The notes beneath the pieces were generated by a model that worked only from the letters and a program-made list of their open reading frames with translations, was not told the DNA's origin and made no database searches. Below, piece after piece: positions 17,789 to 47,055 of a DNA stretch of 64,000 nucleotides. Numbering within the stretch: position 1 is the stretch's first letter; every line of letters starts with the position of its first letter. The position numbers and the translations under genes are program-made. Source of the DNA: a phage; NCBI GenBank assembly GCA_028909515.1, contig GCA_028909515.1_4811.1, one strand, 5' to 3'.

Positions 17789-18090
17789 ATAGCCGCGCCT
17801 TTATTAGTGTGATACGGATGATACGGATAAAATGAGGCGTATTTTTATCCGTATCGGTGTATAAGCCGCGCTATCACTGGTGTGCTACGGATGATACGGA
17901 TGATACGGATACTTTTCATATATAAGAGTTTATAAAAAAATAAAATTAAATTAGATATATAATTTTAAATTAATTTATTTGAATTCCTATATAGTACGGC
18001 GGCAACGCGTATCATCCGTATCATCCGTAAGATTCTTTTGAAAACAACAACTTACTTGATACGGATGATACGTCATTATACGTATAAAAC
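17789..18090. repeat. Iteron-like locus 1: 9 bp ACGGATGAT repeats in both orientations around an AT-rich core
   Basis: A ~40 bp unit ending in TACGGATGATACGGAT occurs twice as a direct repeat. A 9 bp-stem hairpin lies between the copies. An AT-rich core at 17913-17995 is followed by inverted copies GTATCATCCGTATCATCCG. Confidence 0.6.
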
Positions 18091-30038: not shown

Positions 30039-30253
30039 CTTAGTGCGGCCCTTTCTTTTGCCTGCCGTGCAGGAGTGTACTGCAAATTTACTGTGGGTAC
30101 AAAATAGTACGGTACTGTCTAGGATTTTTTCTTTGAAAAGTTAGTGGACCAAATGTGTCGTATTTTGATTAGTGTACTACAAATTTCATCAAGTACCAAA
30201 ACGCACCAAAAGACCCATGCCATAAAAACCACACGAACGCAATAATCAATCGC

Positions 30254-30338
30254 CGTTACAGTTTCCAGCGTTACAATTCGAAAGCGAATGATTCGAAGCA
30301 TAATAATATGAAGCATAATGATTCGAAAGCGAATGATT
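30254..30338. repeat. Nested direct repeats in non-coding DNA
   Basis: ATTCGAAAGCGAATGATT twice, GAAGCATAAT twice between them, CGTTACA twice just upstream. The 18-mer contains a 5 bp palindrome. Confidence 0.6.
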
Positions 30339-30463
30339 GCGTGTAGGATAATATCGGTGGGGATTATTCTAGATGCATGTAATTTCGCATGCGTACTATT
30401 TTCGGACGAAGGGTCGGCATATTCCTCGTTTTAGTTCGGAACGAAGGGAAAGTTTTGCGCCTT

Positions 30464-30537
30464 TATAAAACAACGACTTACGCGACCCTCCCTAACGGTC
30501 CGATATAGGTGTCTATATAAAACAACGACTTACGCGA
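30464..30537. repeat. Perfect 22 bp direct repeat TATAAAACAACGACTTACGCGA, two copies
   Basis: Copies at 30464-30485 and 30516-30537. Confidence 0.7.
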
Positions 30538-30662
30538 TGTTCTCCATTTAACGTAATACCCGTTATGCGAACTAAGGCGCATCTCGGCGAAGATTATGCG
30601 ACGACGAAGGGAAGGATAAAGGAGTTTTCGCGGAGAAGCGCATCGGGATAGGGACGAAGAAA

Positions 30663-30681
30663 AGCCGCGACTAAGCGCGGC
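30663..30681 (-). terminator. Weak terminator-like hairpin after small acidic gene A
   Basis: GCCGCG, 6 nt loop, CGCGGC, followed on the minus strand by TTTTCTTCG. Confidence 0.3.
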
Positions 30682-30701
30682 CTATTAGTAACGGAAGGGT
30701 A

Positions 30702-30992
30702 TTATAAGGAGACGATTTTAAAATAAGTTACTTCGCCGCCAAGTTGCGGGACCGCGATATATTCGCCGCCGATTTCGGTAATCGTATAGACGAAGCCGTT
30801 GATGGTTACGCGGTAGGATACTACGTCCTCGTCGCGATACTTGTAAAGGTCGAGGAAGTTGATCGGCTCATAAATAGACTCGATAGTCGCGTCTACGTTA
30901 GAGAGATAAACGCTCTCTAAGGTTTCGCCAAATACGTTAGAGTTTTCGGAAGTCTCGACGCGAGCGGAACGGATAGCGGATAAAGTAATCAT
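30702..30992 (-). CDS. Small acidic protein, paralog A of a three-member family
   Basis: 96 aa. AGGAG site. Blocks shared with B and C, for example SVYLSNVDATIE with EVYAANVDQTIE. Confidence 0.55.
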   Translation of the reverse strand: MITLSAIRSARVETSENSNVFGETLESVYLSNVDATIESIYEPINFLDLYKYRDEDVVSYRVTINGFVYTITEIGGEYIAVPQLGGEVTYFKIVSL

Positions 30993-31016
30993 AATATTCT
31001 CCTAGTTAGTCGGGAG

Positions 31017-31037
31017 GGTAGCGACCTATTCGCTACC
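31017..31037 (-). promoter_or_regulatory. Leader hairpin in the 5' UTR of gene A
   Basis: On the transcribed strand: GGTAGCG, loop AATAGGT, CGCTACC. Lies between the -10 element and the ribosome-binding site. Confidence 0.5.
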
Positions 31038-31058
31038 TCATCCCCTCTCGATATAAAC

Positions 31059-31088
31059 ATTATAGTCTTAGTGTACGAATAAGTAAAG
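31059..31088 (-). promoter_or_regulatory. Sigma70-like promoter of gene A
   Basis: Transcribed strand reads GTGCTTTACTT...TTCGTACACT...TATAAT then GTTTATATCGAGAGG. Shared with the promoters of B and C. Confidence 0.5.
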
Positions 31089-31097
31089 CACTTTTCG

Positions 31098-31399
31098 TTA
31101 TTCTGCGATAAAATATTTATAAGCTTTATCGCCTTCTATATCGAGATACTCGACGATAATTAACGCTTCGCCGCGCGGCGTAACGGTTTCGATGAGGGTT
31201 ACGGTTTCGTCGTCGGCCCGAATGAAGCGGATGGCGCTACGTTCGGCGTACTTAATCTCGTCGAAGGAAAGGCCGACGAAGGCGACCGCGCGGACTTTAA
31301 TTCCGCTCCACTCTAGTTCCGCGTTAACGGCTTTAAGAAGAGAAGCGACGGTTAAGCGGTCTTCGTCGTAAGTAAGAAGAGAAGAAATTAAAGTAGCCA
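31098..31399 (-). CDS. Small acidic protein, paralog C
   Basis: ATG MATLISSLL with a GGGAG site, chosen over the longer track ORF (31098-31457). Confidence 0.5.
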
Positions 31400-31457
31400 T
31401 AATAAAACTCCCGATGCTAGTAGAAGGAAGGGCCATCACCCGTCTCGATATAAACAA

Positions 31458-31485
31458 GTATACGCGAGTGTACGAAGAAGTAAAG
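31458..31485 (-). promoter_or_regulatory. Sigma70-like promoter of gene C
   Basis: Transcribed strand reads CTTTACTTCTTCGTACACT...TATACT then TGTTTATATCGAGACGG. Back to back with the promoter of B. Confidence 0.45.
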
Positions 31486-31528
31486 AAAAAAAGATAAAAT
31501 AATTTATCTCATTTTTATCGAAAAAGTG

Positions 31529-31557
31529 CTTTACTTTTTTCTACACTATATTATAAT
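31529..31557 (+). promoter_or_regulatory. Sigma70-like promoter of gene B
   Basis: GTGCTTTACTTTTTTCTACACT...TATAAT then GTACTCATATCGGGACGG. Confidence 0.5.
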
Positions 31558-31580
31558 GTACTCATATCGGGACGGGATGA

Positions 31581-31601
31581 GTTAACGAATAGGTCGTTAA
31601 C
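31581..31601 (+). promoter_or_regulatory. Leader hairpin in the 5' UTR of gene B
   Basis: GTTAACG, loop AATAGGT, CGTTAAC. Same loop as the gene A hairpin; two stem positions differ and both are compensated. Confidence 0.5.
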
Positions 31602-31625
31602 GCCTCTCCCAACTAGGAGTTTAAA

Positions 31626-31910
31626 ATGGCTATTCTTAACGTTTCTTCTATTCGCAACGCTATCGTCGAGAACTACGGCGTAAAACAAATTTTATCCGAA
31701 GTCTACGCCGCGAACGTAGACCAAACTATCGAGGCGGGTGGGGTAACGGTCGCCGAGGCTTTTAAACTTTACGCGGCGCTACCGGAATCGGACCGCGAAG
31801 CCTTCGAAGTAAACGTTAACGGATACTTCTTCGAAGCGGTCGAAATCGGTAACATCTTACTCGTTATGGGCGAAGAAGAATTTGAGACCTTCTCCCTCGT
31901 CGAAGCGTAA
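31626..31910 (+). CDS. Small acidic protein, paralog B
   Basis: 94 aa. AGGAG site. All 7 Leu codons are non-CTG and both Gln codons are CAA. Confidence 0.55.
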   Translation: MAILNVSSIRNAIVENYGVKQILSEVYAANVDQTIEAGGVTVAEAFKLYAALPESDREAFEVNVNGYFFEAVEIGNILLVMGEEEFETFSLVEA

Positions 31911-31990
31911 GAGAGGATTTTTAGAGCGTCGTGCGCGGCGCTTTAATAAAATTCTTTCGCGCCTAGCGCCCTAACAAATAGGAGTTTATT

Positions 31991-32617
31991 ATGGTTAGCT
32001 TAAATCGTTTCTCGACTAGCGGCGACGTTATCGCAACTAAGACCGCCGACCTCGTTGCATTTTATAATGCAAATTCCGGTTCGAAGCCGATTAAGAAATT
32101 TGCGGACCGCCGGACCGCCGAGACTCGCGTAATCGCGTTAATCGAGTCCTTAAACGCGCTCGATGAGCCGTCCAACGAATCGCCCATTCCCGACGCGAAG
32201 CCGCGCGAGGAAGTGTCCAGCGATGTAAAAACGCATAAGGCGCGCGCGGTCGTTAAAAAGGCCGAGCCGACCCAGGAAGAACTCGACGCGATGAGCGATG
32301 AAGAGTATGAAGCCTTCGTTAAGAGCGGCTTAAACGATAGTGCGAATTGCGTAGTGCAAAATGGAACTCCTTCCCATCGCCGTTCGAATAGCGAAGGTAT
32401 TGCAAAAAGTTGGGATAATAAGGAAGTGGCGCAAAAGCGTCTTACTCGTAACGGTGTTATGGTCGAGGGTGTAGGCGAGTTCAAATCGGTCCGCGTAGCG
32501 TTCGCCGCGCTGGGCTTACCGGATAGCAAGCATATTCGCTTCCGCATGAAGCTTAAAGAAGCTGGACGCTTAAACTTCGAGTTCGGCAACAAGTCCTACA
32601 CCTTCCAGATTATCTAA
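31991..32617 (+). CDS. Hypothetical protein with island-type codon usage
   Basis: 208 aa. AGGAG site. CpG-rich codons. Contains two copies of the ATAGTGC(A/G)AAT DNA motif in different reading frames. Confidence 0.5.
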   Translation: MVSLNRFSTSGDVIATKTADLVAFYNANSGSKPIKKFADRRTAETRVIALIESLNALDEPSNESPIPDAKPREEVSSDVKTHKARAVVKKAEPTQEELDAMSDEEYEAFVKSGLNDSANCVVQNGTPSHRRSNSEGIAKSWDNKEVAQKRLTRNGVMVEGVGEFKSVRVAFAALGLPDSKHIRFRMKLKEAGRLNFEFGNKSYTFQII

Positions 32618-33545
32618 TCGAATGGCGGCCCTTCGGGGTCGCTTTTCATAGTGCAAATTGGTGGATTATGAATACTCTTATTCTCATCGCTACGTTGTCC
32701 ATCGGAAGTGGTCGCACCTTATCCCTTTATGACCATAGTGCAAATTGCGCTTACCCTACGCGCGTTGCGGCGATAGTTAATAGTGCAAATAAGATGCTAT
32801 TCGAGACTTGCTGGCGGGTCGATAACGAGAAAGGTCGGGTAGTCTTAGGTTATAGTGCAAATCTGCTGGTGGAGTCGTTCGATTGGACGGCTGAAGGTCG
32901 TAAATTGTTACGTAAAGTGACTAAAAGATGACTTATAATAATACACTTTCTAACGCGTTTATGGTTGCAACCTTCCCCGTCGTATTACCGACGGCCCTAG
33001 AAGTGGAGAAAATGTGTTCTAGGGCCGTTTTATAGTGCAAATTGGCTAGTGGCGGGAGAATTGCTCGCCTTCTTTGGCCGCCTCTCCAAAATCCTTGTAG
33101 AAATCGTCCATAGAACGGCCCATTTTACTATTGCCGTTTTCATCAATCATCGTGATGCCGTAGATGATATTCAGTTCACGAATAGCATTAAGCTTGGCTG
33201 ACGCCGCGACTTCTGGATCACGCACAAGCTTGACCAAATTGTGAATTGCACCTTTTACGCTCCACAAATCCTTGAGTGGCATCTCTTCCATACGCTTTTT
33301 GAAGCGCATTTTGTAGTATGGGTTGCGTTGCGCGCAAAGGATTCGCTGGCCAGTGTAGTTATCCGTTGCAACTTCCATTCCAAATACTAGTGCAAAAGCT
33401 GCGCGCATGTCATGGCCCTGAATAACAAGGTCAATGAACTCATCGAATAAAGCCTGATTGTGCTCTGCAAATCGCGGGTCTTCAAAGTCTTCAGGCATCG
33501 CTACATAATCTTGACTCATAGTGCAAAATCCCATAGTGCAAATTA
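32336..33545 (+). repeat. Same-orientation array of an 11 bp motif, ATAGTGCAAAT, at least 8 copies
   Basis: Copies near 32336 (variant), 32351 (variant), 32648, 32735, 32780, 32852, 33032, 33518 (variant) and 33534. Present in coding and non-coding DNA and in different frames. Confidence 0.6.
33046..33534 (-). CDS. Hypothetical early protein
   Basis: 162 aa. The start region overlaps two copies of the 11 bp motif; an alternative ATG lies at 33519. Confidence 0.45.
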   Translation of the reverse strand: MGFCTMSQDYVAMPEDFEDPRFAEHNQALFDEFIDLVIQGHDMRAAFALVFGMEVATDNYTGQRILCAQRNPYYKMRFKKRMEEMPLKDLWSVKGAIHNLVKLVRDPEVAASAKLNAIRELNIIYGITMIDENGNSKMGRSMDDFYKDFGEAAKEGEQFSRH

Positions 33546-33744
33546 ATAGTGTGAATTATACAATGGATGGACATTATATTCAAGTGCAGATTGATGTTCA
33601 TTATGGCTATAAACGTACACAAATCATAGTGCTGATAGAGTTGCGGACCGTGGTGCGTGGTGTACTGTTTGATACGTATAAAAGAAATCCATCCCTTTCG
33701 CCGCTTGCTATGCAAATCAATGACTTAGCCGCTGCTGGCTGGTT

Positions 33745-34120
33745 GAAGCGTATCATGACGTATCATCCGTATTGCCGCAAGTCTTTGTTTTTACTTATAT
33801 CTTACGGATGATACGTATAAATATAAGTTTAGTATAAGTATGAGGATGTAGAAAAAAATTAATTTAAATTAATTCAAAATGGAGTTAATTAATTTTCTGG
33901 AATTCTATATATATTATGTTTGCACCCGTATCATCCGTATCAGCGTATTTTTCCTTATAAATCAATAGCCCAATGATACGTCATGATACGTATGAATGAC
34001 TGCCTTCGCGGCAAAACAATCCCAGTGTATACCAACAATCCCAGGCGCGGCGCACCACAGGGCCACGGTACAATATCCTGTGAAGAGGTGACTCTCATTT
34101 CCTTATACGTATCATCATGG
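33745..34120. repeat. Iteron-like locus 2: GATACG-type repeats in both orientations around an AT-rich core
   Basis: GTATCATCCGTAT, ACGGATGATACG and GATACGTCATGATACG flank an AT-rich stretch at 33840-33920. Homologous to the locus at 17789-18090. Confidence 0.55.
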
Positions 34121-34483
34121 ACTACGATTACTAAAACTAAAAACATTATTAAAATTCTGAGCACCAACACCACAAGCACCAAGACCCACGGCTAACGCAC
34201 CGTTAGCCAATACTCCACGATAAAATATCCTATAAATTACAAACAATCCGCGTATATAATAGCACCATAATTATTTATTTTTGATTCAATATTTACACTA
34301 AAATAAGCCATTGTATTTTCCTCACTGTTCTATCCGTATTATTTAGTGGATTAAACTGTCATAAATACTTATAAACGTTGATTGCCACAATATGCAATAA
34401 TCTTGATAAATTATTATAATATTTTCGCTCTCTTAAATTACAGCCTTGAATCGTAAATAACCACAAAAAGCCTCACATTACAC

Positions 34484-34514
34484 AGGCAAACAAAAAGGGC
34501 CAATCGGCCCTCTT
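34484..34514 (-). terminator. Rho-independent terminator at the end of the minus-strand early operon
   Basis: On the minus strand: GGGCC, 4 nt loop, GGCCC with extended pairing, then TTTTTGTTTG, directly after the stop of the 34529-34981 gene. Confidence 0.55.
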
Positions 34515-34528: not shown

Positions 34529-34981
34529 TTAAAATATAAAATTCTTCACTCCAAGCCTTTTGAATTCTTTCCTTAACATTATATTAAACTTCTTCAATTT
34601 AGTTTTATTCATCCTTAGCGGATTGTAGGTGAACACCTTTTCTATTACTTCCTTACGCATCTTTGAGCGCATATTAGTTAAGTAATAATTCTTGAACATA
34701 TTAATAAGGTGATTGGCTTCCAGCTTAAGCTCAATTACTTCTTCCGATTCATCAAGCTCAAGCAGTCCTTTTTGCGTAAGAATATCTCTTAATATATCCT
34801 GACATTTCTTGCAATCACCTTTGCCTAAAAGCGAGTCGATGTAATCGCCGCTGACGCGCTCATCACCGAAATAAGTTGCGCGACCACAAAGGCTTTGCAC
34901 TTCTCCTTCATCAAAGTAGTGCGCACGATGAGCCCACTTCGGTATGGCCCAACCAGCGGCGATAAGCTTTTTACCCATCAC
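34529..34981 (-). CDS. Hypothetical early protein with Cys-rich N-terminus
   Basis: 150 aa. CGR...CKKC zinc-binding-like motif. Lys-rich C-terminal half encoded by AT-rich DNA. Confidence 0.4.
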   Translation of the reverse strand: MMGKKLIAAGWAIPKWAHRAHYFDEGEVQSLCGRATYFGDERVSGDYIDSLLGKGDCKKCQDILRDILTQKGLLELDESEEVIELKLEANHLINMFKNYYLTNMRSKMRKEVIEKVFTYNPLRMNKTKLKKFNIMLRKEFKRLGVKNFIF

Positions 34982-35403
34982 CCCTCCTTAACAACCCGAT
35001 AAGCAATAATGTCGCTGCCTTTGAGTGCTCCTATATGACCCCAGTGAAGATGGTCAGAAAGTCTCGACAGTACTTTATCACCTCCATTGCGCAGCTTGTA
35101 TTCAACAATCTCGCCAGGCACCGGATTCTCGCCACCAAACCACACGGTCCACGCTTCCTCCTTCGGCGCATCATCATCCACGCCTATAGTGGCAACAACG
35201 TCGTGCAACTGCTTAACGAGCGCCCACGCATCACGGACCTGCGAGCGTAATGCAACCAACTCGCGTTGCGCTTCACCATATTTCGCTTCCAGCGCGGCAT
35301 AGTCCTCATATTCAACGTAGCCGCCTTCATCATCCTTTACAACTTCGCAGGTGCAAGCGTGCTGCGTGCAATAATCAACATCGTAACGTTGTATCATGAT
35401 CAA
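34978..35403 (-). CDS. Hypothetical early protein sharing a C-terminal domain with the 36803-37303 product
   Basis: 141 aa. C-terminus WTVWFGGENPVPGEIV...SDIIAYRVVKEG. Confidence 0.5.
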   Translation of the reverse strand: MIMIQRYDVDYCTQHACTCEVVKDDEGGYVEYEDYAALEAKYGEAQRELVALRSQVRDAWALVKQLHDVVATIGVDDDAPKEEAWTVWFGGENPVPGEIVEYKLRNGGDKVLSRLSDHLHWGHIGALKGSDIIAYRVVKEG

Positions 35404-35660
35404 TACTCCTTGTTTACTTCTTCAATTATTTTTTCGGCCAATTTGATTGCCTGTTCTTTGTTTAACACCAAACATGATGTTTCACTGTATATCGACAGCT
35501 CAACAAGATTGCAACCTCCTTCACCATCGTTGTAAAACTGAATGCTGCACACATCGCCGTCATTATCTTCAAACTCAAAGGTTGGGCATTCAGGGGTCCG
35601 AAGATTGCTCCTGTCCTTGAACATTTCTTTTAAGCAATCATTAATCATTTTAAGCTCCAA
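35400..35660 (-). CDS. Hypothetical small acidic early protein
   Basis: 86 aa, overlapping start/stop. Confidence 0.4.
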   Translation of the reverse strand: MELKMINDCLKEMFKDRSNLRTPECPTFEFEDNDGDVCSIQFYNDGEGGCNLVELSIYSETSCLVLNKEQAIKLAEKIIEEVNKEY

Positions 35661-36136
35661 GTATTTAACAGGGTGTTTCGTAAGTTCTGCACTTCTATCT
35701 TGAGAAGGTCAATTTGCAAGTCACGATGGGCCAGTTCAGCGGCGATGTCCGACTTGCTGTAAAGTCCTTCATGAGTCATGGCATAGATGTGGCGCGTATA
35801 ATAGCCGCCCTCGTCGAGTTGCTCGATGTCACGCTGCCCGACTGCGTATTGTTTATCGGTCGATGGCGCTGGGTCCTGGATTTTGATTGATTCGACTTCC
35901 TTCAATGAATCGCGTGATGCTGGCCTGTTCTCTTCGAACATCTTTCCATCACCAATTTGCTTGCACCAAAGCGAATCGCCAATTGCGTATCCCCACTGGC
36001 CGCGCCAATCGTTCCATGCAGGCTTCCCCTCATACGCCCAGATGGTTCCGTTAGAGTCACGCGCAACGAATCGCGCACGAGCGTCTATTTCGTATTCTTT
36101 ACCTTCAAAATTGATGCGCTGCGTTTTGTTAGTCAT
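35645..36136 (-). CDS. Hypothetical early protein with a Trp-rich motif
   Basis: 163 aa. Motif VARDSNGTIWAYEGKPAW...GQWGYAIG recurs in the 39240-39557 product. Confidence 0.45.
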   Translation of the reverse strand: MTNKTQRINFEGKEYEIDARARFVARDSNGTIWAYEGKPAWNDWRGQWGYAIGDSLWCKQIGDGKMFEENRPASRDSLKEVESIKIQDPAPSTDKQYAVGQRDIEQLDEGGYYTRHIYAMTHEGLYSKSDIAAELAHRDLQIDLLKIEVQNLRNTLLNTWSLK

Positions 36137-36465
36137 GATGCATCCTTAGTTGGATAGAATTTAGGGTTGTTCTTATAGAACGCCTTGAGCCATGCCTTTG
36201 CTTCAGCAATGCTGCTGAACTCTTCCTTGGAGAGTCCGGTGCGGTCCTCGCCTGCGACCTTGAAATGGATGCGCACCTTGAGACGAAGGTTGGTTGCTCT
36301 CGCGTAGTGGCCTTCATAGCCGTCATGGTTAAGGCTTACTATCGCGGCGAGCATCTCGCAGTCTTCTTTATCGGGATTGCCGCTGTAACAAATCGGCCAG
36401 CCACGACGTTGGAATGACCTGTATGAGCCTGTCGGCTCAGGGTCCACGTACCATTTCAATTTCAT
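36133..36465 (-). CDS. Hypothetical early protein
   Basis: 110 aa ORF. Confidence 0.45.
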   Translation of the reverse strand: MKLKWYVDPEPTGSYRSFQRRGWPICYSGNPDKEDCEMLAAIVSLNHDGYEGHYARATNLRLKVRIHFKVAGEDRTGLSKEEFSSIAEAKAWLKAFYKNNPKFYPTKDAS

Positions 36466-36803
36466 TTAACCTTCTCCAATTGGAATCTCGTTTCAGGAAA
36501 GCCCGCAACAAACATGTCACGGCCCTCTACATCACGCTTCACAAACCATCTCATGCCGTTAACAACCGTGAAGACAATTTGCTTTCCATCAATAATAAGT
36601 CCTTTTGCCTCATAAAGCAAATAAGACTGACCGACCTTGAAGATTGACAGTTCTTTGCCTGTGCTGGTGCACTTGAGCCGCCACTTGGTGAGATTGGATT
36701 CACTCGCCTCGATGTCAACAATCTTACCGCGCAGCGGCGATGTGCGCTGAAGCTCGGCCATCTGTTCATCGAACGTTAGCTCACGGCCTTCTTGCTCTTC
36801 CAT
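36462..36803 (-). CDS. Hypothetical early protein
   Basis: 113 aa ORF. Confidence 0.45.
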   Translation of the reverse strand: MEEQEGRELTFDEQMAELQRTSPLRGKIVDIEASESNLTKWRLKCTSTGKELSIFKVGQSYLLYEAKGLIIDGKQIVFTVVNGMRWFVKRDVEGRDMFVAGFPETRFQLEKVK

Positions 36804-37303
36804 TATTCCTCCACGACGCGATAAGCGATGATGTCATACCCCGATTCTTTATGACTCCAACGCCATTTTTCGGATTTTGAAGGAAAAATCGTCTTTGTGC
36901 CTTGCCTTACCGCCACGCGGACTAACTTGCCAGGCACCGGATTGTCGCCGCCATCCCAATCAATCCAACCGTCAGCAGTCTTTTGTTTATCCTTCAAATG
37001 CTCATGCTTCTCACCGATGTGGGCGACAGGTTGACGGCTTCCGTAATAGAATGCTAATGCAACGTCGTAGGATGGATGAGTATTCGAAAGACAGATGTCA
37101 TCGCACCAAAGCTCCATGGTGCGCGACTTAAGCGTCATCATGTTAGTATACCACTCGATGGTGTAGTGGTCGTTAAGGTTGCCGACGATATAGAAGTTGC
37201 GACAAAAGTGCGCAGCGTCATCCGACTTCTCGCGGCTATAGCTTCTGATTGCGCCTGCCTTTACAGCCATTTCCAATACTGCTTCGAGTTGTTCGATTTT
37301 CAT
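36803..37303 (-). CDS. Hypothetical early protein sharing a C-terminal domain with the 34978-35403 product
   Basis: 166 aa. C-terminus GWIDWDGGDNPVPGKLV...YDIIAYRVVEE. Confidence 0.5.
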   Translation of the reverse strand: MKIEQLEAVLEMAVKAGAIRSYSREKSDDAAHFCRNFYIVGNLNDHYTIEWYTNMMTLKSRTMELWCDDICLSNTHPSYDVALAFYYGSRQPVAHIGEKHEHLKDKQKTADGWIDWDGGDNPVPGKLVRVAVRQGTKTIFPSKSEKWRWSHKESGYDIIAYRVVEE

Positions 37304-37536
37304 TTCTTTGCTCCTAGTTCAATTTGATAGCCGATTGACAATTCATTTTCGCCGATGTTGAATGCATCAACGGGCTGCGACATCACCGCTTTTAAATATA
37401 CCTTCTTGCGCCGCTTCGCCTTGTACAGACAACGGTCGCCGCTGCGGTTGTAGATGTTAAGCCAGGTGCGCTTGCTAATCTTATACGGCACATGCGGCTT
37501 GATGAACAGTAAACGGGCTTTAAGGTTGGATGTCAT
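37300..37536 (-). CDS. Hypothetical small basic protein
   Basis: 78 aa ORF. Confidence 0.35.
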   Translation of the reverse strand: MTSNLKARLLFIKPHVPYKISKRTWLNIYNRSGDRCLYKAKRRKKVYLKAVMSQPVDAFNIGENELSIGYQIELGAKK

Positions 37537-37831
37537 AATAGTATTTTCCTCCTCTCATGTTCTCTTTAATTCCTTGTAATGCCTCGCGACCCTTCTTTGT
37601 CATCACCACGGATGAATAGCGCGTCGGGTCTTTCTCTCCTGGCACCGCCCAATCAACAAGGCCCAACCGGAATAAGACAGGGATTGATGGCGCATTGATG
37701 TCGTGAAACAGTGATGGCCGCTTTTCATAAGCCTTCTTGCAATCGCCGCGCAGCATGTATGGCGTTCCGTCTTCCATGCGATATAATGTCTGAATCTGAG
37801 CTAGGCTTAATCTCATTGCTGTCTTCTCCAA
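37520..37831 (-). CDS. Hypothetical early protein
   Basis: 103 aa ORF. Confidence 0.4.
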   Translation of the reverse strand: MEKTAMRLSLAQIQTLYRMEDGTPYMLRGDCKKAYEKRPSLFHDINAPSIPVLFRLGLVDWAVPGEKDPTRYSSVVMTKKGREALQGIKENMRGGKYYYDIQP

Positions 37832-37998
37832 ACTGCGTGTAATGTTTTCTGGTCAAACTTGGACAGCGTTTCACGCTCCGAAGCCTTAAGGAATCGCGTG
37901 CCAAAGAACAGCATGCCTTGCGGCGTTTTAACGAGTGACACGCCTTTGTTGCGGTAGAAGCTTACCAGTGCTGATGCGTTATGGACTTCGGTACTCAT
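37813..37998 (-). CDS. Hypothetical small protein
   Basis: 61 aa ORF. Confidence 0.3.
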   Translation of the reverse strand: MSTEVHNASALVSFYRNKGVSLVKTPQGMLFFGTRFLKASERETLSKFDQKTLHAVWRRQQ

Positions 37999-38360
37999 AA
38001 AACGCCTCCAAAAGTCGCAACACGAATGCCGCGACGCTCAAACGTTAACATAGGATTAATACCCGTCGCGCAGGTGATGTAAGCGTCATCGGCGACAAGG
38101 TCATAACCGCCTGCGCAAAGAATGAAGGTCGTGTCGCTGTTCTTCAAGAGCATAACAGCAGCTGCCGCACCTTTCTTGTTCTTAAAGAAGAATACTGGTT
38201 CACCGCCTTCTTGCGTCTCTTTGAACTCCTGAATAGCGCCGCACTCTACTGCGGCCTGCATCACCTTCAACAACTTGCTCTTCATCGCTTCGGTGCTCAT
38301 AATAACCTCTCCTTTGCTTGATGAAGTAAGTATAATACAGACAAATAAAAAGGCAAGCAA
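37995..38360 (-). CDS. Hypothetical early protein
   Basis: Track ORF of 121 aa with a TTG start; an internal ATG (MSTEAMKSKLL) is the more likely start. My reading of the sequence near 38280 was one base out of register with this ORF. Confidence 0.4.
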   Translation of the reverse strand: MLAFLFVCIILTSSSKGEVIMSTEAMKSKLLKVMQAAVECGAIQEFKETQEGGEPVFFFKNKKGAAAAVMLLKNSDTTFILCAGGYDLVADDAYITCATGINPMLTFERRGIRVATFGGVL

Positions 38361-38378
38361 TTAGCTCACCTTTTTGAA

Positions 38379-38639
38379 TTAAATCTGATCGGCTTCTTCG
38401 TGTAGACCAACTGACCTTAACTTACGCCGCAAGTAAGCTTTCTTTTCACACTCGCGTCCGGCTGGCGTGACGCGGTACTTTAATGTGTTCTCTCTATTCT
38501 TGCGTCGGTTGTTCTCGTCGAGTAGCTCTACCAGCGCCTTTGCGTCGTCGAGTGTTAACACCACGGGCCGCGACCCATTAACGGCCTGTCGAAGCTTCCG
38601 CGCGGCAAGGGCCAGTGGCGTCATCGGTCCCTTATTCAA
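38379..38639 (-). CDS. Hypothetical small basic protein, possibly DNA-binding
   Basis: 86 aa, Arg/Lys-rich. Likely ATG at MTPLALAARKL. Same register caveat near 38580. Confidence 0.4.
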   Translation of the reverse strand: MNKGPMTPLALAARKLRQAVNGSRPVVLTLDDAKALVELLDENNRRKNRENTLKYRVTPAGRECEKKAYLRRKLRSVGLHEEADQI

Positions 38640-39557: not shown

Positions 39558-39641
39558 AATTCACCTCACTTGTTCGCCTTGATGAAAAGAGTATAAATAT
39601 TGATAAAAGAAAAGGCAAGCATTTAGCTCACCTTTTGATAT

Positions 39642-39836: not shown

Positions 39837-39854
39837 AAATCACCTTTTTGATAT

Positions 39855-41248: not shown

Positions 41249-41250
41249 AA

Positions 41251-41624: not shown

Positions 41625-41631
41625 CTTCAAC

Positions 41632-42345: not shown

Positions 42346-42993
42346 TTATCCTGTGGCCTGCATATTGCGTACATACTTCTGCTCTAATGAATAGATGAAG
42401 TCGGCGACAGTTAATCCCTTCGTGTGCCATTCATACATGGTGAAGCCTGTATTCAGGAAATAGCCGCGCACCTTGTCCATCGCTTCAGCTTCCTCCATTG
42501 AAGCCATCAGCGCGGCGACGTTGTCATAAGAAGGCACAAATCCCTTCTTGCGTAGCGCATTGCGCAAATCTTTAGTTCTGAATCCAATCTTGCAAGGGTC
42601 ATCACGGCCCGTGGATGATGCAACCTTCGGTAGCGCAAGGAACTCTTTAAGGAACATTGCAATGTTCAAGTCTCCTGCGTCATCAAGCTTCTGGATTCGG
42701 TTGCGACCGCGACCCTTGAATTCACTTGCACGAGGGTGAGCGCCAAAACAGTGCGCCCCTTCCAGTTTAGGGTCGATGATCATTACATCTTTACCAATGC
42801 GCAGCTCTACGTAGTAAAGATAAGACTCATCGACAAGCTTTGTGCGCTTGCAAGTGATTGAGTCCTTATCATAACCAAAGCCACGCAACACGGTTGAAAT
42901 CATCCGGTTCATTTCTTCGCCGTGAACGTCACTCTCTTTGTTCAGTTCACCAAGATTTTGAAAGAATTTAGCGATGTTGATTGCTTTATTCAT
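42346..42993 (-). CDS. Hypothetical early protein
   Basis: 215 aa ORF directly downstream of the helicase. Confidence 0.45.
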   Translation of the reverse strand: MNKAINIAKFFQNLGELNKESDVHGEEMNRMISTVLRGFGYDKDSITCKRTKLVDESYLYYVELRIGKDVMIIDPKLEGAHCFGAHPRASEFKGRGRNRIQKLDDAGDLNIAMFLKEFLALPKVASSTGRDDPCKIGFRTKDLRNALRKKGFVPSYDNVAALMASMEEAEAMDKVRGYFLNTGFTMYEWHTKGLTVADFIYSLEQKYVRNMQATG

Positions 42994-44663
42994 CAGAATT
43001 CATCCTTATCTCTTCCCAAAGAACGTTTACGCTCAATAACCTTCTTCAAGAATTCAATATCTTCAGGGTCAGACTCATCGCGGATGAGATACGCTAAGAT
43101 GGTCATCAAATCAGAAATGTATTCCCCTGATTCATTCTTAATCAGCGGCGTAAAGTAACCGCGCTGGTTGCGATAGGTTGCAGGCTCAAAACCAAGCTTC
43201 GACATGTGCGGCGCAAGGGTACGAGAGAAAGGCGACTTGCCGCACTTCGCTCTGAATCCCATAGCAATAGCACCACTGGTGATGTGCCAGCGTCCGCTGT
43301 GATGTCGGTCATAAGGCGCGGTGATGACGACTTCAACAAGGTCGTTGTCAACCATCTCATCACGGATAACGCCGCGCGCACGTTCCATTTCGTTCTTGCT
43401 GAACTCAGTAAGCATGCGAGATGTTTCACCAACAAACGCATTGTAACCTGCTTCGCCGTGCTTCTCCATCCACGCAGCACACTCAGCCATCAACTGCCAA
43501 ACGTCTTCTTTCAAAGTGGAAAGGTCAGCTTGGAAATCTTTCGACCAGTTCGGTTGCCCGTCCTTGTCAGCGAGTTGGCCAACAAAGATAGGATACACAC
43601 GACGGTTGCCCGTGTCATCGCGCTGCATACCTGCGTATTCATTGCCGTCCATGATAGCAATCCACTGGCGTGGTTTAACCTGCGTATCTTCAAATTTGAA
43701 GTCCAGGTCATCTTCTGTCTTAGTCAGGAATGCTTTCATGTTTTCGATGTCGGCCTTTTTAAAGCCTGTCATCTCGCCGACGTTCGCGATAATCGAGCGA
43801 CCCGTAATAGCTCGCAAGAACGGGTTGAAGTTTTGCGCGGCTAAGTTTAACGGAATCGGTGTTGCGTGGCGGTCGTTCATAATAGCTTCGCAAAGCAGCT
43901 TGCTAAAATAACTCTTCCCTGCGTTCTGGCCGCCGATGAGCGCGATGGAGATTGGCGCTTGACAGCCAGGGTTGGTCAGGCGGTTATAGAGCGATAGCCA
44001 AAAATACACACCGATTTGTCGGTTTAACTCTGTATCGAATGGTCGGAATAGCTCGATAAGGTATTTCTCGATGCGCGCAGTACCGTCCCATTCAGGCAGC
44101 TTCTTGTAGAAGAAGTCCATCAGGTCGTCGCGCTGATAACGCATGGCCCATTCCTTATAGGATTGAGCGACCTGACGTGAGTTTGGGTTGGACAATCCTG
44201 CTGCGTCGACAGCGGCAACTATCTCTGTGACTTCCAAAGTACGGTCGGTGAATGTTTCGCCGCGATGGTCGACTAAGCGCCCACGAAAAGTATCTTTGTG
44301 AGGGAATGGAACAACGCCACTTCCCTTATCAAACAACGCGTCGAAAACCGCATAACGGTTCATGTCACTCGTCCTGTCTGCCTGTAGAACGAAGTCATCT
44401 TTGGTAGGCTTGTAGTGAGGGAACTTGATTACCTGAAGTGAGGCGAGCAAGCGTGCTCTTTCAACCAAGTCTTCTTCACCGTAGCATTCCATGCGCTCTG
44501 AATCTTTTTCAACGGCTTTATGTTGAAGGCTGATTTTAGCTCTGGTGCCTTGCTGCTCTGCCGCCTGCATTTCTTCCGAAACGCCTGCATCTTGAATTTC
44601 GTCAAAGATTGCACCAAATTCATCACCTGTATCCTCTGGAAGATTGTCATTATTAATTGACAT
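42993..44663 (-). CDS. P-loop NTPase, replicative helicase (SF3 / primase-associated type)
   Basis: 556 aa. Walker A IALIGGQNAGKSYF. Sits downstream of the primase-like gene. Family assignment is inferred. Confidence 0.55.
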   Translation of the reverse strand: MSINNDNLPEDTGDEFGAIFDEIQDAGVSEEMQAAEQQGTRAKISLQHKAVEKDSERMECYGEEDLVERARLLASLQVIKFPHYKPTKDDFVLQADRTSDMNRYAVFDALFDKGSGVVPFPHKDTFRGRLVDHRGETFTDRTLEVTEIVAAVDAAGLSNPNSRQVAQSYKEWAMRYQRDDLMDFFYKKLPEWDGTARIEKYLIELFRPFDTELNRQIGVYFWLSLYNRLTNPGCQAPISIALIGGQNAGKSYFSKLLCEAIMNDRHATPIPLNLAAQNFNPFLRAITGRSIIANVGEMTGFKKADIENMKAFLTKTEDDLDFKFEDTQVKPRQWIAIMDGNEYAGMQRDDTGNRRVYPIFVGQLADKDGQPNWSKDFQADLSTLKEDVWQLMAECAAWMEKHGEAGYNAFVGETSRMLTEFSKNEMERARGVIRDEMVDNDLVEVVITAPYDRHHSGRWHITSGAIAMGFRAKCGKSPFSRTLAPHMSKLGFEPATYRNQRGYFTPLIKNESGEYISDLMTILAYLIRDESDPEDIEFLKKVIERKRSLGRDKDEF

Positions 44664-45972: not shown

Positions 45973-47055
45973 CTATTTTATGCCACCTGCACGACGATTT
46001 ATCATGTCAAGTTGATTCTCAATATAAGGCATGACGATTGCTTCAACAAAAGCGGTCCAACCTTTCTTGCCTTCCCCTTTACGGTGACAGTCGTGGGCGC
46101 AACCGAACACAAATTCATGTTCTGCACCAGGGATAGGGCCGCGAAAGTAAGCGCCATACGGGTCGCCGTTGGTGTGTTCTTCACCCCAAGGACAGATTAT
46201 GCGGCACTTGCCTGACATGTTCTCGATGACGTCACCATCAGACCCTTCACCCATCTTGCTGCGCGCTAGAATCTGCTGGGCTATTTTATACCAAACAGCA
46301 TCATACTTGTATTCATCGACGTCAATTTGAATCTCACGCTTTTGCGGCATGACGACGTGAAAGCCAAATGCCTGACAAATGTCTTCGATGGTGTAGCGCA
46401 ATGAGTAGTCTGCATGGACAAGTCGGCAGCGGAACGGGTCGCCGTTCTCATCGACATATTTATAGGGGCCGTCATGAGTCACACGCTTGTTGTTGATGCA
46501 CCCAGGAACACGGCCCACGCGCGTTACGTCTTTAATCGTGTTGTCGCCGCCCTTCTTGAGTACCATGTTAACGAAAGACCCAAGGAACGCTTTGAACTGA
46601 ATAAGATGGTCAATCGGTTCTTTAAAGAAGTACCAAAGCTGGTGGTTGTTCGGTGAAGTCTCGACGATGACAGTCGGCTTCAGTCGCTCAAAAAAGAATT
46701 CCAAATCTAAATCGCCTTTGGACCCTTTACCGTGACCGATGTCGTCGACCATCATCGCCATGCCGTGACCAAAGGCCGACTCTGTACGCCAGTATCGCAT
46801 CTCACCCGTCTTTGGGTTGGGAGACTTACGCATTGAACTGATGCAAGCATAGCCGTTTTGGTGCTGCATGAGCGGCTTTCCCAACTTCCAAGGCTTAGGC
46901 CAGAAGCTGCTGTTAATCTTCTTGCCGCGCTCGTCAGTCTGCACCGTTGCTTCAGGCGCAAACACCGTCATGACGCGCTCATCTTCTGGAATGCCTCTTT
47001 GGAGTTCTGTTAAAAACTCTTCGATTATTTTTGCTTCTTCTCTTAAACTAGCCAT
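45973..47055 (-). CDS. Primase-polymerase-like protein (archaeo-eukaryotic primase type, putative)
   Basis: 360 aa. Motifs MVDDIGHG and NHQLWYF, C-terminal Cys/His cluster CPWGEEH...CAHDCH. Lies upstream of the helicase. Family is inferred. Confidence 0.45.
   Translation of the reverse strand: MASLREEAKIIEEFLTELQRGIPEDERVMTVFAPEATVQTDERGKKINSSFWPKPWKLGKPLMQHQNGYACISSMRKSPNPKTGEMRYWRTESAFGHGMAMMVDDIGHGKGSKGDLDLEFFFERLKPTVIVETSPNNHQLWYFFKEPIDHLIQFKAFLGSFVNMVLKKGGDNTIKDVTRVGRVPGCINNKRVTHDGPYKYVDENGDPFRCRLVHADYSLRYTIEDICQAFGFHVVMPQKREIQIDVDEYKYDAVWYKIAQQILARSKMGEGSDGDVIENMSGKCRIICPWGEEHTNGDPYGAYFRGPIPGAEHEFVFGCAHDCHRKGEGKKGWTAFVEAIVMPYIENQLDMINRRAGGIK

What the first reader, a model, noticed from the sequence alone, without database searches (positions are those of the whole stretch)
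33745..34120. Second copy of the iteron-like locus in a ~1 kb non-coding gap
The same GATACGGATGATACG-type repeats in both orientations flank an AT-rich core (33840-33920), whose motifs resemble those at 17913-17995. The surrounding 33535-34484 stretch has no convincing ORF and is bounded by a terminator. Two homologous copies about 16 kb apart suggest a dedicated cis element recognised by one factor.
Basis: seen in the sequence. Interest (0 to 1): 0.6.

Follow-up and report, generated by a model that had tools for sequence, protein, structure and literature searches.

The report
Paired phage origin that marks genome end
This non-coding stretch of an E. coli phage genome is one of two matching copies of what looks like a DNA replication start site, and the middle of this copy is also where the phage cuts its DNA to make one end of the packaged genome, a combination not described before for this group of therapy-relevant phages.

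Summary
The window is a Wifcevirus-type E. coli myophage. GATACG-core repeats with a 9-10 bp period sit in both orientations around a ~100 bp AT-rich centre at 33,670-34,117 and again at 17,810-18,085. These centres are the two most AT-rich spots in the window. The two loci align colinearly (z = 24.6 against shuffles), and 17 of the 21 TGATACG heptamers lie in them.

Two things are new. First, relatives whose virion ends were determined start at window 33,880|33,881, the middle of this AT core. It is therefore the left boundary of a ~3.67 kb direct terminal repeat, 361 bp from the small terminase gene. Fixed ends map to the homologous element in Kylevirus, Myosmarvirus and Pbunavirus. Second, the two-locus design recurs in all four genera, each with its own repeat motif. 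That points to one co-evolving binding protein.

The best candidate is the phage's helicase, a full-length structural homologue of the SaPI1 Rep initiator-helicase. SaPI origins have this architecture, and the element lies directly 3' of that helicase gene in several lineages. I read it as a paired SaPI/P4-type origin whose terminase-proximal copy also carries the packaging cut (confidence ~0.5). The main rival is that the repeats are small-terminase binding sites (~0.22). Nothing has been tested experimentally.

The parts
33670..33680 (.). Outlying single repeat unit (TGATACGTATA) on the terminal-repeat side of locus 2
   Evidence: (D1)
33749..33773 (.). Outer repeat array on the terminal-repeat side (CGTATCATGACGTATCATCCGTATT). 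It is a perfect 18-nt inverted partner of 33973-33990.
   Evidence: (I1, I4)
33801..33820 (.). Inner repeat array on the terminal-repeat side (CTTACGGATGATACGTATAA). It is inverted relative to 33927-33939.
   Evidence: (I4, I5)
33821..33926 (.). AT-rich core of locus 2, about 84-87% A+T. It is the second most AT-rich stretch of the window.
33880..33881 (.). Inferred terminase cut and left physical end of the virion DNA, which is the left boundary of the direct terminal repeat. The context AATTAACTCC|ATTTT (Mansfield orientation) is invariant in 7 Wifcevirus genomes.
   Evidence: Mansfield position 1 (PhageTerm) and WFC position 1 map here. SP13 and Ro157lw have TerS at 361 and 360. L145 keeps TTAACTCC|ATTTTGAA.
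33927..33948 (.). Inner repeat array on the unique side (CGTATCATCCGTATCAGCGTAT)
   Evidence: (I5). It is retained in otherwise non-homologous flanks of other Wifcevirus subgroups.
33973..33996 (.). Outer repeat array on the unique side (ATGATACGTCATGATACGTATGA)
   Evidence: (I1, I12)
34103..34117 (.). Outlying repeat unit on the unique side (TTATACGTATCATCA)
   Evidence: (I3, I8)
33913..34480 (.). Hypervariable non-coding spacer at the unique end of the genome. It is non-homologous between Wifcevirus subgroups apart from the repeat units.
34493..34514 (-). Intrinsic terminator that ends the minus-strand early-gene block
   Evidence: dG -14.1, z -3.5. WFH annotates a terminator under the match (H8).
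30209..33880 (.). Inferred direct terminal repeat, about 3.67 kb. The right end is placed by homology with the Mansfield and Kyle right ends.
33046..33519 (-). Small terminase (TerS) gene. Its start lies 361 bp from the cut, and the gene lies inside the terminal repeat.
   Evidence: (E217 TerS decamer 7UXE, E 7e-34)
33555..33600 (-). Sigma-70-like promoter matches upstream of TerS, between the element and the gene
   Evidence: consensus matches only
17810..17856 (.). Locus 1 outer arrays (TGATACGGATGATACGGAT, then inverted TTTTATCCGTATCG)
17883..17912 (.). Locus 1 inner array with three tandem 9-mers (TGCTACGGA TGATACGGA TGATACGGA TAC)
   Evidence: (I1)
17913..17995 (.). Locus 1 AT-rich core, up to 95% A+T and the most AT-rich stretch of the window. 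It lacks the CTCC|ATTTTG cut context.
18008..18085 (.). Locus 1 arrays on the other side (CGTATCATCCGTATCATCCGTAAG, a 25-nt spacer, then TGATACGGATGATACGTCATTATACGTAT)
   Evidence: (I1, I7)
42993..44663 (-). VapE-like, SaPI-Rep1-like self-loading helicase. It is the candidate protein that reads the repeats.
   Evidence: Pfam PF05272. 7PDS by sequence, E 4e-11. AF2 model with pLDDT 87. Foldseek top hit 7PDS, E 1e-16, 480 aligned columns.
45973..47055 (-). RepB-type DNA primase, upstream of the helicase in pri...rep order
   Evidence: Pfam PF16793, E 5e-36

Best explanation
Locus 2 (33,670-34,117) and locus 1 (17,810-18,085) are two paralogous copies of an iteron-type replication origin of the SaPI/P4 kind. 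Short GATACG-core repeats with a 9-10 bp period lie on both sides of a ~100 bp AT-rich centre and point in opposite directions.

The inferred mechanism is as follows. The phage's own Rep1-like self-loading helicase (42,993-44,663) reads the repeats, probably through a C-terminal winged-helix domain. It loads one hexamer on each side and opens the AT-rich centre. The RepB-type primase (45,973-47,055) then primes DNA synthesis.

In addition, the centre of locus 2 is the site where the terminase cuts replicated DNA. This part rests on mapped virion ends in relatives. The cut makes the left physical end of the packaged genome at 33,880|33,881, which is the left boundary of a ~3.67 kb direct terminal repeat (30,209-33,880). 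The small terminase gene starts 361 bp away. Locus 2 is therefore a composite origin plus packaging site.

Locus 1 is a second copy that lacks the invariant cut sequence. It most likely acts as a second origin or as a cis-acting replication partner, like crr of phage P4.
For: SHOWN
- The repeats, the dyad layout and the AT cores are real and far beyond chance, and the two loci are homologous.
- The two-locus design is conserved in four genera. Each has its own motif, nearly confined to the two loci: GATACGGAT in Wifcevirus, RAATAWCC in Kyle, GTAATTTGG/CCGGTAATT in LMA2 and ACTTTTCG in Hera.
- Paralogues within one genome are far more alike (z = 25-44) than orthologues between genera, which score at noise level. 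This fits co-evolution with one sequence-specific protein.
- Metagenomic relatives carry further motif variants. L143 has TATCCGCAAGA and L146 has CATCCGC. L145 keeps GATACG.
- The only PDB sequence hit of the helicase is the SaPI1 Rep1-DNA complex 7PDS (E 4e-11). A confident AF2 model (pLDDT 87, pTM 0.80) has 7PDS as its top fold match by nine orders of magnitude. That match has E 1e-16, 480 aligned columns against a ~451-residue chain, and TM 0.61. Residues 436-504 show a helix-strand-helix-helix-strand-strand pattern.
- SaPI origins are defined in PMC9371898 as follows: pri lies upstream of rep; the ori lies immediately 3' of rep; there are 6-12 short iterons around a central AT-rich region, with at least 2 on each side pointing in opposite directions; the Rep C-terminal winged helix reads the iterons; one hexamer loads on each side.
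- The element lies directly 3' of the helicase gene in LMA2, Hera/MTx, Gekk3-15 and L144, and one gene away in L143.
- Mansfield (PhageTerm), WFC, SP13 and Ro157lw all begin at window 33,880|33,881.
- Kyle position 1 lies in the core of its own locus 2. MTx position 1 (PhageTerm) lies at the edge of its core. Pbunavirus Ab29 was opened at a fixed read termination (PMC4482731), and it starts at the edge of the LMA2 core.
- TerS is a homologue of the E217 TerS decamer.

INFERRED
- That the helicase is the protein that binds the repeats.
- That the loci fire as origins.
- That locus 1 is not cut.
Against: - There is no experimental evidence for binding or origin function in this family.
- In the window the element is 9 kb from the helicase gene. 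In every lineage examined it stays next to TerS (Wifcevirus, Kyle, L145, L146).
- A cut lying between repeat arrays near terS is also exactly what a terminase recognition site would look like. SPP1 pacL-pacC-pacR and P1 pac are examples.
- SaPIs have one origin, so the conserved second copy inside the head-gene module is not explained by that model.
- Gekk3-15 has only one copy.
- The repeat unit is 9-10 bp with a 6-bp core, against 5-6 nt in SaPIs.
- GC skew follows transcription direction and gives no origin signal.
- The winged helix was seen only in a predicted model and was not searched as an isolated domain.
- The DNA-binding halves of both the helicase and TerS are the more divergent parts between genera, so divergence does not discriminate between them.
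- The end positions come from relatives' records, not from reads of this phage. The WFC right end differs by 81 nt from the Mansfield-equivalent position.
Confidence: 0.5

Rival explanations
1. The repeat arrays are binding sites for the small terminase, so locus 2 is a pac-type recognition and cleavage site. TerS rings would bind the 9-10 bp-period repeats on both sides and position the large terminase to cut the AT-rich centre. Locus 1 would be a second TerS-binding site that is not cut, or only rarely cut. It could serve as a synapsis partner, as in the T4 'twin-ring pac synapsis' idea, or couple head-gene expression to packaging.
For: - The physical end lies between the arrays in four genera.
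- The element is always adjacent to terS, with 357-377 bp from the cut to the TerS start in the terminal-repeat phages. It stays there when small genes are inserted between it and the helicase.
- TerS is a homologue of a decameric ring with N-terminal helix-turn-helix motifs (PMC9611059). A ~9 bp repeat period would suit DNA wrapped around such a ring; this last point is my inference.
- SPP1 and P1 pac sites have recognition repeats flanking the cut (PMC9611059 for SPP1; P1 from my own knowledge).
- The T4 twin-ring model is a precedent for two homologous TerS sites.
Against: - Strict dyad symmetry and a 85-95% AT centre are typical of bidirectional origins, not of directional pac sites.
- A conserved second copy 16-20 kb away has no established role in packaging.
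- Locus 1 lacks the invariant cut context.
- E217 TerS showed no appreciable DNA binding in vitro (PMC9611059), although these repeats were probably not tested.
- The architecture and the position 3' of a Rep1-like helicase match the SaPI origin definition point by point.
Confidence: 0.22
2. The arrays are operator or enhancer sites for a phage transcription regulator. That regulator would control the two promoters immediately downstream, those of TerS and of the prohead protease-scaffold-capsid operon. The AT-rich centre would be bent or UP-element-like DNA. On this reading the packaging cut merely happens to lie in the same intergenic region.
For: - Both loci sit 150-350 bp upstream of co-oriented genes that have sigma-70-like promoter matches between the element and the gene. 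In Kyle there is a perfect TTGACG-17-TATAAT before TerS.
- LMA2 annotates predicted promoters in the locus 1 gap.
- Pbunavirus 14-1 has non-sigma-70 promoters that need phage factors (PMC10914365).
Against: - Other late operons (portal, large terminase, tail) lack the element.
- The promoter matches are no more frequent than in shuffled sequence.
- A ~300 bp dyad element with a 100 bp AT core is oversized for an operator.
- Gekk3-15 keeps only the TerS-proximal copy.
- No candidate regulator was identified.
Confidence: 0.1
3. The locus is not a functional element. On this reading it is low-complexity AT-rich spacer with chance repeats, or it hides a small protein gene or a non-coding RNA.
For: Gene callers place small hypothetical ORFs here in some records, and ORFs of 30-96 aa exist.
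Against: - The repeats are enriched more than 100-fold over shuffles.
- The layout is conserved across four genera with co-varying motifs.
- None of the ORFs has a PHROG match.
- The unique-side flank is non-homologous between close relatives, yet it keeps the repeats.
- There is no Rfam match.
Confidence: 0.02

Closest known systems
SaPI (Staphylococcus aureus pathogenicity island) pri-rep-ori replicon
   Same: - The window's helicase is a full-length structural homologue of SaPI1 Rep1.
- A primase gene lies upstream of the helicase gene.
- The origin has short lineage-specific iterons on both sides of a central AT-rich region, in opposite orientation (PMC9371898).
- In Pbunavirus, Myosmarvirus, Gekk3-15 and L144 the element is directly 3' of the helicase gene.
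   Different: - Here there are two copies per genome.
- The repeat units are 9-10 bp rather than 5-6 nt.
- The primase is RepB-type.
- In Wifcevirus the element is 9 kb from the helicase gene.
- The AT-rich centre of one copy is also the packaged-genome end. SaPIs are not known to cut there.
Phage P4 ori / crr pair, read by the alpha primase-helicase (from my own knowledge; no paper retrieved)
   Same: Two separated loci carry the same short iterons. They are bound by one D5/SF3-type primase-helicase through a C-terminal winged helix, and both act in cis in replication.
   Different: - P4 ori and crr are ~4.5 kb apart and are not duplicates of one dyad element.
- P4 packaging uses a separate cos site.
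- Homology of the window's helicase to P4 alpha was not tested here.
pac sites with recognition repeats flanking the cut (SPP1 pacL-pacC-pacR; P1 pac hexamers)
   Same: - The terminase cut lies between repeated motifs, next to the terS gene.
- In headful-packaging Pbunavirus relatives the homologous site carries the single fixed read termination (PMC4482731).
   Different: - Known pac sites are single-copy and asymmetric, and they lack a 100 bp AT-rich centre.
- Wifcevirus makes fixed ends with a 3.67 kb direct terminal repeat rather than permuted headfuls.
T7-type concatemer junction (direct terminal repeat, with pac signals and a secondary origin/promoter near the ends; from my own knowledge)
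   Same: Both have exact direct terminal repeats that must be duplicated during packaging. In both, replication or transcription signals lie close to the cut.
   Different: - The T7 repeat is 160 bp.
- There are no iteron arrays and no second copy.
- T7 uses its own RNA polymerase promoters.
SPP1 oriL / oriR (from my own knowledge)
   Same: A phage with two origins that carry the same initiator-binding boxes next to AT-rich DNA, far apart on the genome.
   Different: The initiator family is different (G38P). Neither SPP1 origin is the pac site.

Membership tests
SaPI-type self-loading Rep helicase origin (pri-rep-ori) | The genome encodes a Rep-family (VapE/D5-like) initiator-helicase | tested here: met
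   PF05272, E 1.6e-28. 7PDS SaPI1 Rep1 by sequence, E 4e-11. By fold, E 1e-16, 480 aligned columns, TM 0.61 normalised to the target.
SaPI-type self-loading Rep helicase origin (pri-rep-ori) | A C-terminal winged-helix domain in Rep that reads the iterons | tested here: inconclusive
   The AF2 model shows H436-448, E459-462, H463-474, H480-489, E493-497 and E500-504, which is winged-helix-like. The 7PDS alignment spans nearly the whole Rep1 chain. The domain was not searched on its own, and binding is untested.
SaPI-type self-loading Rep helicase origin (pri-rep-ori) | Short iterons on both sides of a central AT-rich region, at least two per side, in opposite orientation | tested here: met
   Both loci have 2-3 units in each inner array plus outer arrays, with inverted orientation across the core.
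SaPI-type self-loading Rep helicase origin (pri-rep-ori) | [quoted passage not shown] | tested here: not met
   In the window the element is ~9 kb from the helicase stop, with about 25 small genes between. The feature is met in the relatives LMA2, Hera/MTx, Gekk3-15 and L144, and nearly met in L143.
SaPI-type self-loading Rep helicase origin (pri-rep-ori) | Iteron sequence is lineage-specific and matches its cognate Rep | tested here: inconclusive
   Motifs are lineage-specific. The helicase termini are its most divergent parts, but so is the TerS N-terminal half. Co-variation could therefore not be assigned to one protein.
SaPI-type self-loading Rep helicase origin (pri-rep-ori) | Rep binds and melts the origin, and the element supports replication | not testable with these tools
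   This needs EMSA or footprinting, plasmid replication assays and marker-frequency analysis.
Terminase recognition/cleavage site (pac-type, or direct-terminal-repeat boundary) | A virion DNA end maps inside the element | tested here: met
   This was mapped by homology to relatives with determined ends: Mansfield and WFC, Kyle, MTx and Ab29. No reads of this phage itself were available.
Terminase recognition/cleavage site (pac-type, or direct-terminal-repeat boundary) | The site lies in or next to the small terminase gene | tested here: met
   The TerS start is 361 bp from the cut.
Terminase recognition/cleavage site (pac-type, or direct-terminal-repeat boundary) | TerS binds specific sequences at the site | not testable with these tools
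   E217 TerS was reported not to bind DNA appreciably in vitro (PMC9611059). These repeats were probably not tested.
Terminase recognition/cleavage site (pac-type, or direct-terminal-repeat boundary) | The site is single-copy in the genome | tested here: not met
   A paralogous second copy exists, although it lacks the cut-site context.
Classical plasmid/lambda-type iteron origin (17-22 bp direct iterons, DnaA boxes) | [quoted passage not shown] | tested here: not met
   The units are 9-10 bp and lie in both orientations on both sides of the core.
Classical plasmid/lambda-type iteron origin (17-22 bp direct iterons, DnaA boxes) | DnaA boxes in or next to the origin | tested here: not met
   TTWTNCACA gives 1 hit in the window, at 53,358, and none in either locus.

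The most novel reading that the evidence does not exclude
Origin and packaging site are one machine rather than neighbours. On this reading the Rep-type helicase opens the AT-rich centre of locus 2, and that opened or firing origin is the substrate the terminase cuts. Origin-primed re-replication from the cut point rightwards would then supply the second copy of the 3.67 kb terminal repeat that each packaged genome needs. Locus 1 would pair with locus 2 to license this step, in the manner of P4 ori/crr or of T4 twin-ring synapsis. This would be a new way of making exact direct terminal repeats. It would also explain why the pac site of the E217/PB1 family has not been found by testing TerS alone.
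Probability: 0.17. Interest if true: 0.8.

Novelty: new variant of a known kind. Interest (0 to 1): 0.55.

Why it matters
Wifcevirus and its relatives, especially the PB1-like Pbunavirus phages, are among the phages most used in therapy. Neither their replication origin nor their packaging signal has been defined. The E217 small terminase has a solved structure, but it has no known DNA target and was reported not to bind DNA in vitro (PMC9611059).

This analysis gives exact, testable sequences in five or more lineages:
- the repeat arrays;
- the AT-rich core;
- the invariant cut context AATTAACTCC|ATTTT;
- a named candidate reader, the Rep1-like helicase, and a named rival, TerS.

It also shows that a genome end sits in the centre of an origin-like element, and that a second copy is kept in step with it across genera. 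If the two functions are coupled, that bears on how exact terminal repeats are duplicated. This question is open outside T7. Practically, knowing the true ends and the cis elements matters for rebooting and engineering these ~68 kb genomes.

Tried and rejected
- **IMG/VR scan for the 15-mer.** Hits were almost all single chance matches. Only known Wifcevirus genomes had clusters, so the scan added no new relatives.
- **TerS-based locus search in IMG/VR.** It returned only close relatives.
- **Rfam and tRNA scans.** Nothing was found, so there is no support for a known RNA gene.
- **Small ORFs in the gap.** No family matched, so a protein gene was rejected.
- **GC skew as an origin indicator.** It tracks transcription direction and is uninformative.
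- **GCGGCA motif as a shared cross-genus signal.** It is common genome-wide and not specific to the loci.
- **Per-region divergence of helicase against TerS, to assign the co-varying reader.** Both proteins diverge most in their putative DNA-binding parts, so this does not discriminate.
- **Promoter scans of both loci.** Matches are no more frequent than in shuffled sequence, and there are none in the cores.
- **Transcription start tables for Pbunavirus 14-1.** The supplements are not held, so I could not test whether promoter P011 lies in locus 1.
- **Literature on repeats, origin or pac site in Wifcevirus and Pbunavirus.** I found no description of these elements.
- **Literature on P4 ori/crr.** Nothing was retrieved, so that comparison rests on my own knowledge.
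- **DnaA boxes.** There are none in the loci.
- **Similarity between the left-end and right-end cut contexts.** I saw no shared motif.
Full report
**What the window is.** The region 33,400-34,600 matches 29 phage records, all Wifcevirus-type E. coli or Shigella myophages of 67-72 kb. The best matches are Bas98 and Bas99 at 96.8% over the full length. The window runs in reverse orientation relative to the well-annotated phage Mansfield. The gene map in window coordinates is:
- 1-17,700 (-): tail, baseplate and head genes, ending with the prohead protease;
- locus 1;
- 18,264-22,453 (-): the portal block;
- 23,239-24,699 (-): large terminase;
- 26,112-28,499 (+): tail fibre;
- a block of small genes that includes the small terminase (TerS, 33,046-33,519, -);
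- locus 2;
- 34,529-47,055 (-): early genes, the VapE-like helicase (42,993-44,663) and the RepB-type primase (45,973-47,055);
- from 47,216 (+): nucleotide metabolism and DNA polymerase genes.

**Checking the observation.** The layout in window orientation is as follows:
- an outer array at 33,749-33,773;
- a 27-nt spacer;
- an inner array at 33,801-33,820;
- an AT-rich core at 33,821-33,926;
- an inner array at 33,927-33,948;
- a 24-nt spacer;
- an outer array at 33,973-33,996;
- single outlying units at 33,670 and 34,103.

Orientation flips across the core, so the whole element has dyad symmetry. The inner arms are 13-14 nt and the outer arms 18 nt, and both pairs are perfect inverted repeats. 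Units follow each other at 9 bp (GATACGGAT) or 10 bp (GATACGTCAT).

The statistics are clear:
- The 15-mer with up to 2 mismatches gives 9 hits against 0.05 expected.
- GATACGKAT gives 12 hits against 0.55 expected, all in the two loci.
- 17 of the 21 TGATACG heptamers are in the two loci.
- The two cores are the first and second most AT-rich 60-100 bp windows of the 64 kb.

Locus 1 has the same colinear plan. It aligns with locus 2 at 75% column identity, with a local score of 61 against 13.0 +/- 1.9 for dinucleotide shuffles.

The other refuting test, a conserved gene, is not met either. ORFs of 30-96 aa exist and some records annotate them. None matches a PHROG family. The stretch 33,913-34,480 is not homologous between Wifcevirus subgroups. 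No Rfam family or tRNA is present. The bounding terminator is real: a minus-strand hairpin plus U-run at 34,493-34,514, with dG -14.1 kcal/mol.

[quoted passage not shown] Its position 1 aligns to window 33,880. The sequence reads ...TAATTCAAAAT|GGAGTTAATT... in window orientation.

Phage WFC was deposited with both repeat copies. TerS sits at 361-834 and again at 69,049-69,522, which gives a 3,784-bp repeat. WFC starts at the same nucleotide. SP13 and Ro157lw, also deposited with both copies, have TerS at 361 and 360. ECO71P1 ends within about 10 nt of the same point.

In an alignment of seven Wifcevirus loci, the terminal-repeat side of the cut is almost invariant. The unique side is non-homologous between subgroups. 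Every genome nevertheless keeps AATTAACTCC|ATTTT at the cut and a GATGATACGGAT array about 30 nt away. A more distant metagenomic relative, L145 (helicase 75% identical), keeps both the GATACG units and TTAACTCC|ATTTTGAA.

The right end of the repeat maps to window 30,208|30,209, by homology with the Mansfield and Kyle right ends. These two fall at equivalent positions. The WFC record ends 81 nt further on. Locus 1 does not contain the CTCC|ATTTTG context.

**The design is family-wide and the motif co-varies.** TerS homologues occur in 359 phage records. I examined one genome from each of several genera.

| Genus and phage | Repeat motif | Position of the mapped virion end | Second copy before the protease operon |
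|---|---|---|---|
| Kylevirus, Pantoea phage Kyle (TerS 43% identical; exact 3,603-bp repeat in the record) | RAATAWCC, 9-bp period | Position 1 in an AT-rich core, 357 bp before TerS | Yes, at 17,650-17,960 |
| Pbunavirus, LMA2 | GTAATTTGG / CCGGTAATT | Ab29 starts at LMA2 59,084, at the edge of the core; Pa193, BrSP1, PA19 and SIIA-P1 share that start | Yes; the two loci share a ~50-nt near-identical flank |
| Myosmarvirus, Hera and MTx | ACTTTTCG | MTx position 1 (PhageTerm, 3,566-bp repeat) at the edge of its core, 377 bp before TerS | Yes |

[quoted passage not shown] In each genome the motif is almost confined to the two loci. Paralogues within one genome score z = 25-44, while the orthologous locus between genera scores at noise level. 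Metagenomic relatives add further motifs: TATCCGCAAGA in L143 and CATCCGC in L146.

The more distant Aeromonas phage Gekk3-15 has a dyad element before TerS, with the motif AATAGGTA, but no second copy. The copy next to TerS is therefore ancestral. The second copy arose in the common ancestor of the four genera, and the two have since evolved in concert. This is what one co-evolving sequence-specific binding protein would produce.

**Which protein reads the repeats?** There are two candidates.

*TerS.* It is a clear homologue of the E217 TerS decamer (7UXE, E 7e-34). The element is always next to its gene. The cut lies between the arrays, as in SPP1 and P1 pac sites.

*The helicase.* Its only PDB sequence hit is 7PDS (E 4e-11). 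The depositing paper identifies 7PDS as the SaPI1 Rep1-DNA complex. An AlphaFold model built on 55 homologues is confident (pLDDT 87, pTM 0.80). Its best fold match, by nine orders of magnitude, is again 7PDS, with E 1e-16 and 480 aligned columns against a ~451-residue chain. The next matches are other D5-type primase-helicases. Residues 436-504 have a winged-helix-like succession of secondary-structure elements.

The same paper (PMC9371898) defines the SaPI replicon as follows:
- the primase gene lies upstream of rep;
- the origin lies immediately downstream of rep;
- there are 6-12 short iterons around a central AT-rich region, with at least two on each side pointing in opposite directions;
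- the iterons are read by the C-terminal winged helix of Rep;
- one hexamer loads on each side.

That is the architecture seen here. In LMA2, Hera/MTx, Gekk3-15 and L144 the element is directly 3' of the helicase gene, and in L143 one gene intervenes. A RepB-type primase lies upstream. In Wifcevirus, Kyle, L145 and L146, small genes have been inserted between the helicase and the element, which stays next to TerS.

Dyad symmetry, the 85-95% AT centre, the second copy and the absence of DnaA boxes fit a self-loading helicase origin better than a directional pac site. As single strands, each flank can also fold into a 13-16 bp hairpin (z = -4.3 to -5.4). This is compatible with priming signals for a RepB-type primase, but that is only an inference. 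I could not assign the co-variation to one protein, because the DNA-binding halves of both proteins are their most divergent parts.

**Most likely mechanism.** The following points are shown:
- the element and its paralogue;
- their conservation and co-variation;
- the position of virion ends in relatives;
- the homology of the helicase and of TerS.

The following points are inferred:
- The Rep1-like helicase binds the arrays, opens the AT core and starts replication at both loci with the RepB-type primase.
- The terminase cuts the core of locus 2 at 33,880|33,881, guided by the invariant AACTCC|ATTTTG context and probably by TerS contacts nearby. This makes the left end of the packaged DNA.
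- Packaging then runs through the genome to the right end of the next terminal repeat.
- Locus 1 is a second origin or a P4-crr-like partner, and it is not cut.

I put about 0.5 on this composite reading and about 0.9 on the narrower claim that the left genome end lies in this core. The rivals are the arrays as TerS sites (0.22), regulator sites for the two downstream operons (0.10) and no function (0.02).

**Novelty.** I found no description of these repeats, of an origin or of a pac site for Wifcevirus or Pbunavirus. A review states that E217 TerS showed no appreciable DNA binding and suggests T4-like site-independent packaging. Reports on Pbunavirus ends are contradictory.

The element is a member of a known kind, the SaPI/P4-type iteron origin, with new features:
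- two copies kept in step with each other;
- a packaged-genome end in the centre of one copy;
- lineage-specific motifs across a whole phage family.

I therefore rate it a new variant of a known kind. Interest is moderate to good, because it turns two open questions for a therapeutically used family (where is the origin, and where is pac?) into direct experiments.

**Limits.**
- No reads of this phage were available. The ends are transferred from relatives, and most of those were called by PhageTerm or from coverage.
- No binding, replication or cutting has been measured for any member of the family.
- The P4, P1, T7 and SPP1-origin comparisons rest on my own knowledge.

Noticed in passing
window 30170-30345 (right end of the terminal repeat at 30208|30209): The right boundary of the terminal repeat has its own conserved signals, different from those at the left end. 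An AGTACAC(TAATC) motif lies about 31 nt outside the cut in both Wifcevirus and Kyle. In the window, 3 of the 4 AGTACAC copies are on the minus strand, at 30075, 30172 and 33660. A cluster of AATCATT/AATGATT units lies 80-130 bp inside the repeat, at window 30287, 30317 and 30332. Kyle has four such units at 3464-3585. Unlike the left-end repeats, this motif is the same in both genera.
   Followed up: partly
window 33913-34480: The unique-end spacer next to the terminal repeat is a recombination hot spot. It is non-homologous and of different length in the window/Bas98, WFC and ECML-117/FEC19/Mansfield subgroups, although the flanking genes are more than 90% identical.
   Followed up: partly
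window 33046-33519: The small terminase gene lies inside the direct terminal repeat, so it is present twice in every packaged genome. It is also far from the large terminase gene (23239-24699). The same arrangement is seen in Kyle and MTx.
   Followed up: no
window 33517-33542: A tandem 11-mer, CATAGTGCAAA, occurs twice 15 nt apart and overlaps the TerS start codon region. On the coding strand it reads TTTGCACTATG twice, each copy ending in ATG. It is conserved in all seven Wifcevirus genomes aligned and in L145. It might be a translational or regulatory signal.
   Followed up: no
whole window: The DnaA-box consensus TTWTNCACA occurs once, against 7.7 +/- 2.7 in shuffles, so it appears to be depleted. 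The hexamer GCGGCA/TGCCGC occurs 99 times on both strands, against roughly 20-30 expected from base composition by my own arithmetic. The copies are spread over the genome rather than clustered.
   Followed up: partly
window 34015-34044 and 34063-34236: There are further short direct repeats in the variable spacer. AACAATCCCAG occurs twice 19 nt apart. A 22-mer, CCACGGTACAATATCCTGTGAA, recurs as CCACGATAAAATATCCTATAAA 152 nt away (D8, D4). Their meaning is unknown, and they lie in sequence that is not conserved in other subgroups.
   Followed up: no
L141/L142 (Aeromonas phage Gekk3-15), record positions 48022-48944: This distant relative has primase, primase-helicase, a 923-bp gap and then TerS in direct succession. 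The gap holds a dyad element (AATAGGTA units, with outer 17-nt inverted GTTAACGTTTTATTAAC arms). There is no second copy elsewhere, and only a 128-bp gap before the head maturation gene.
   Followed up: partly
L134 (Pbunavirus LMA2), record positions 12766-12790: The locus 1 homologue of LMA2 contains CTGGG next to AAAAGTATATAG. CTGGG is the core of the non-sigma-70 promoter motif reported for Pbunavirus 14-1 (PMC10914365). I could not check whether promoter P011 of that study lies here, because the position tables are not held.
   Followed up: partly
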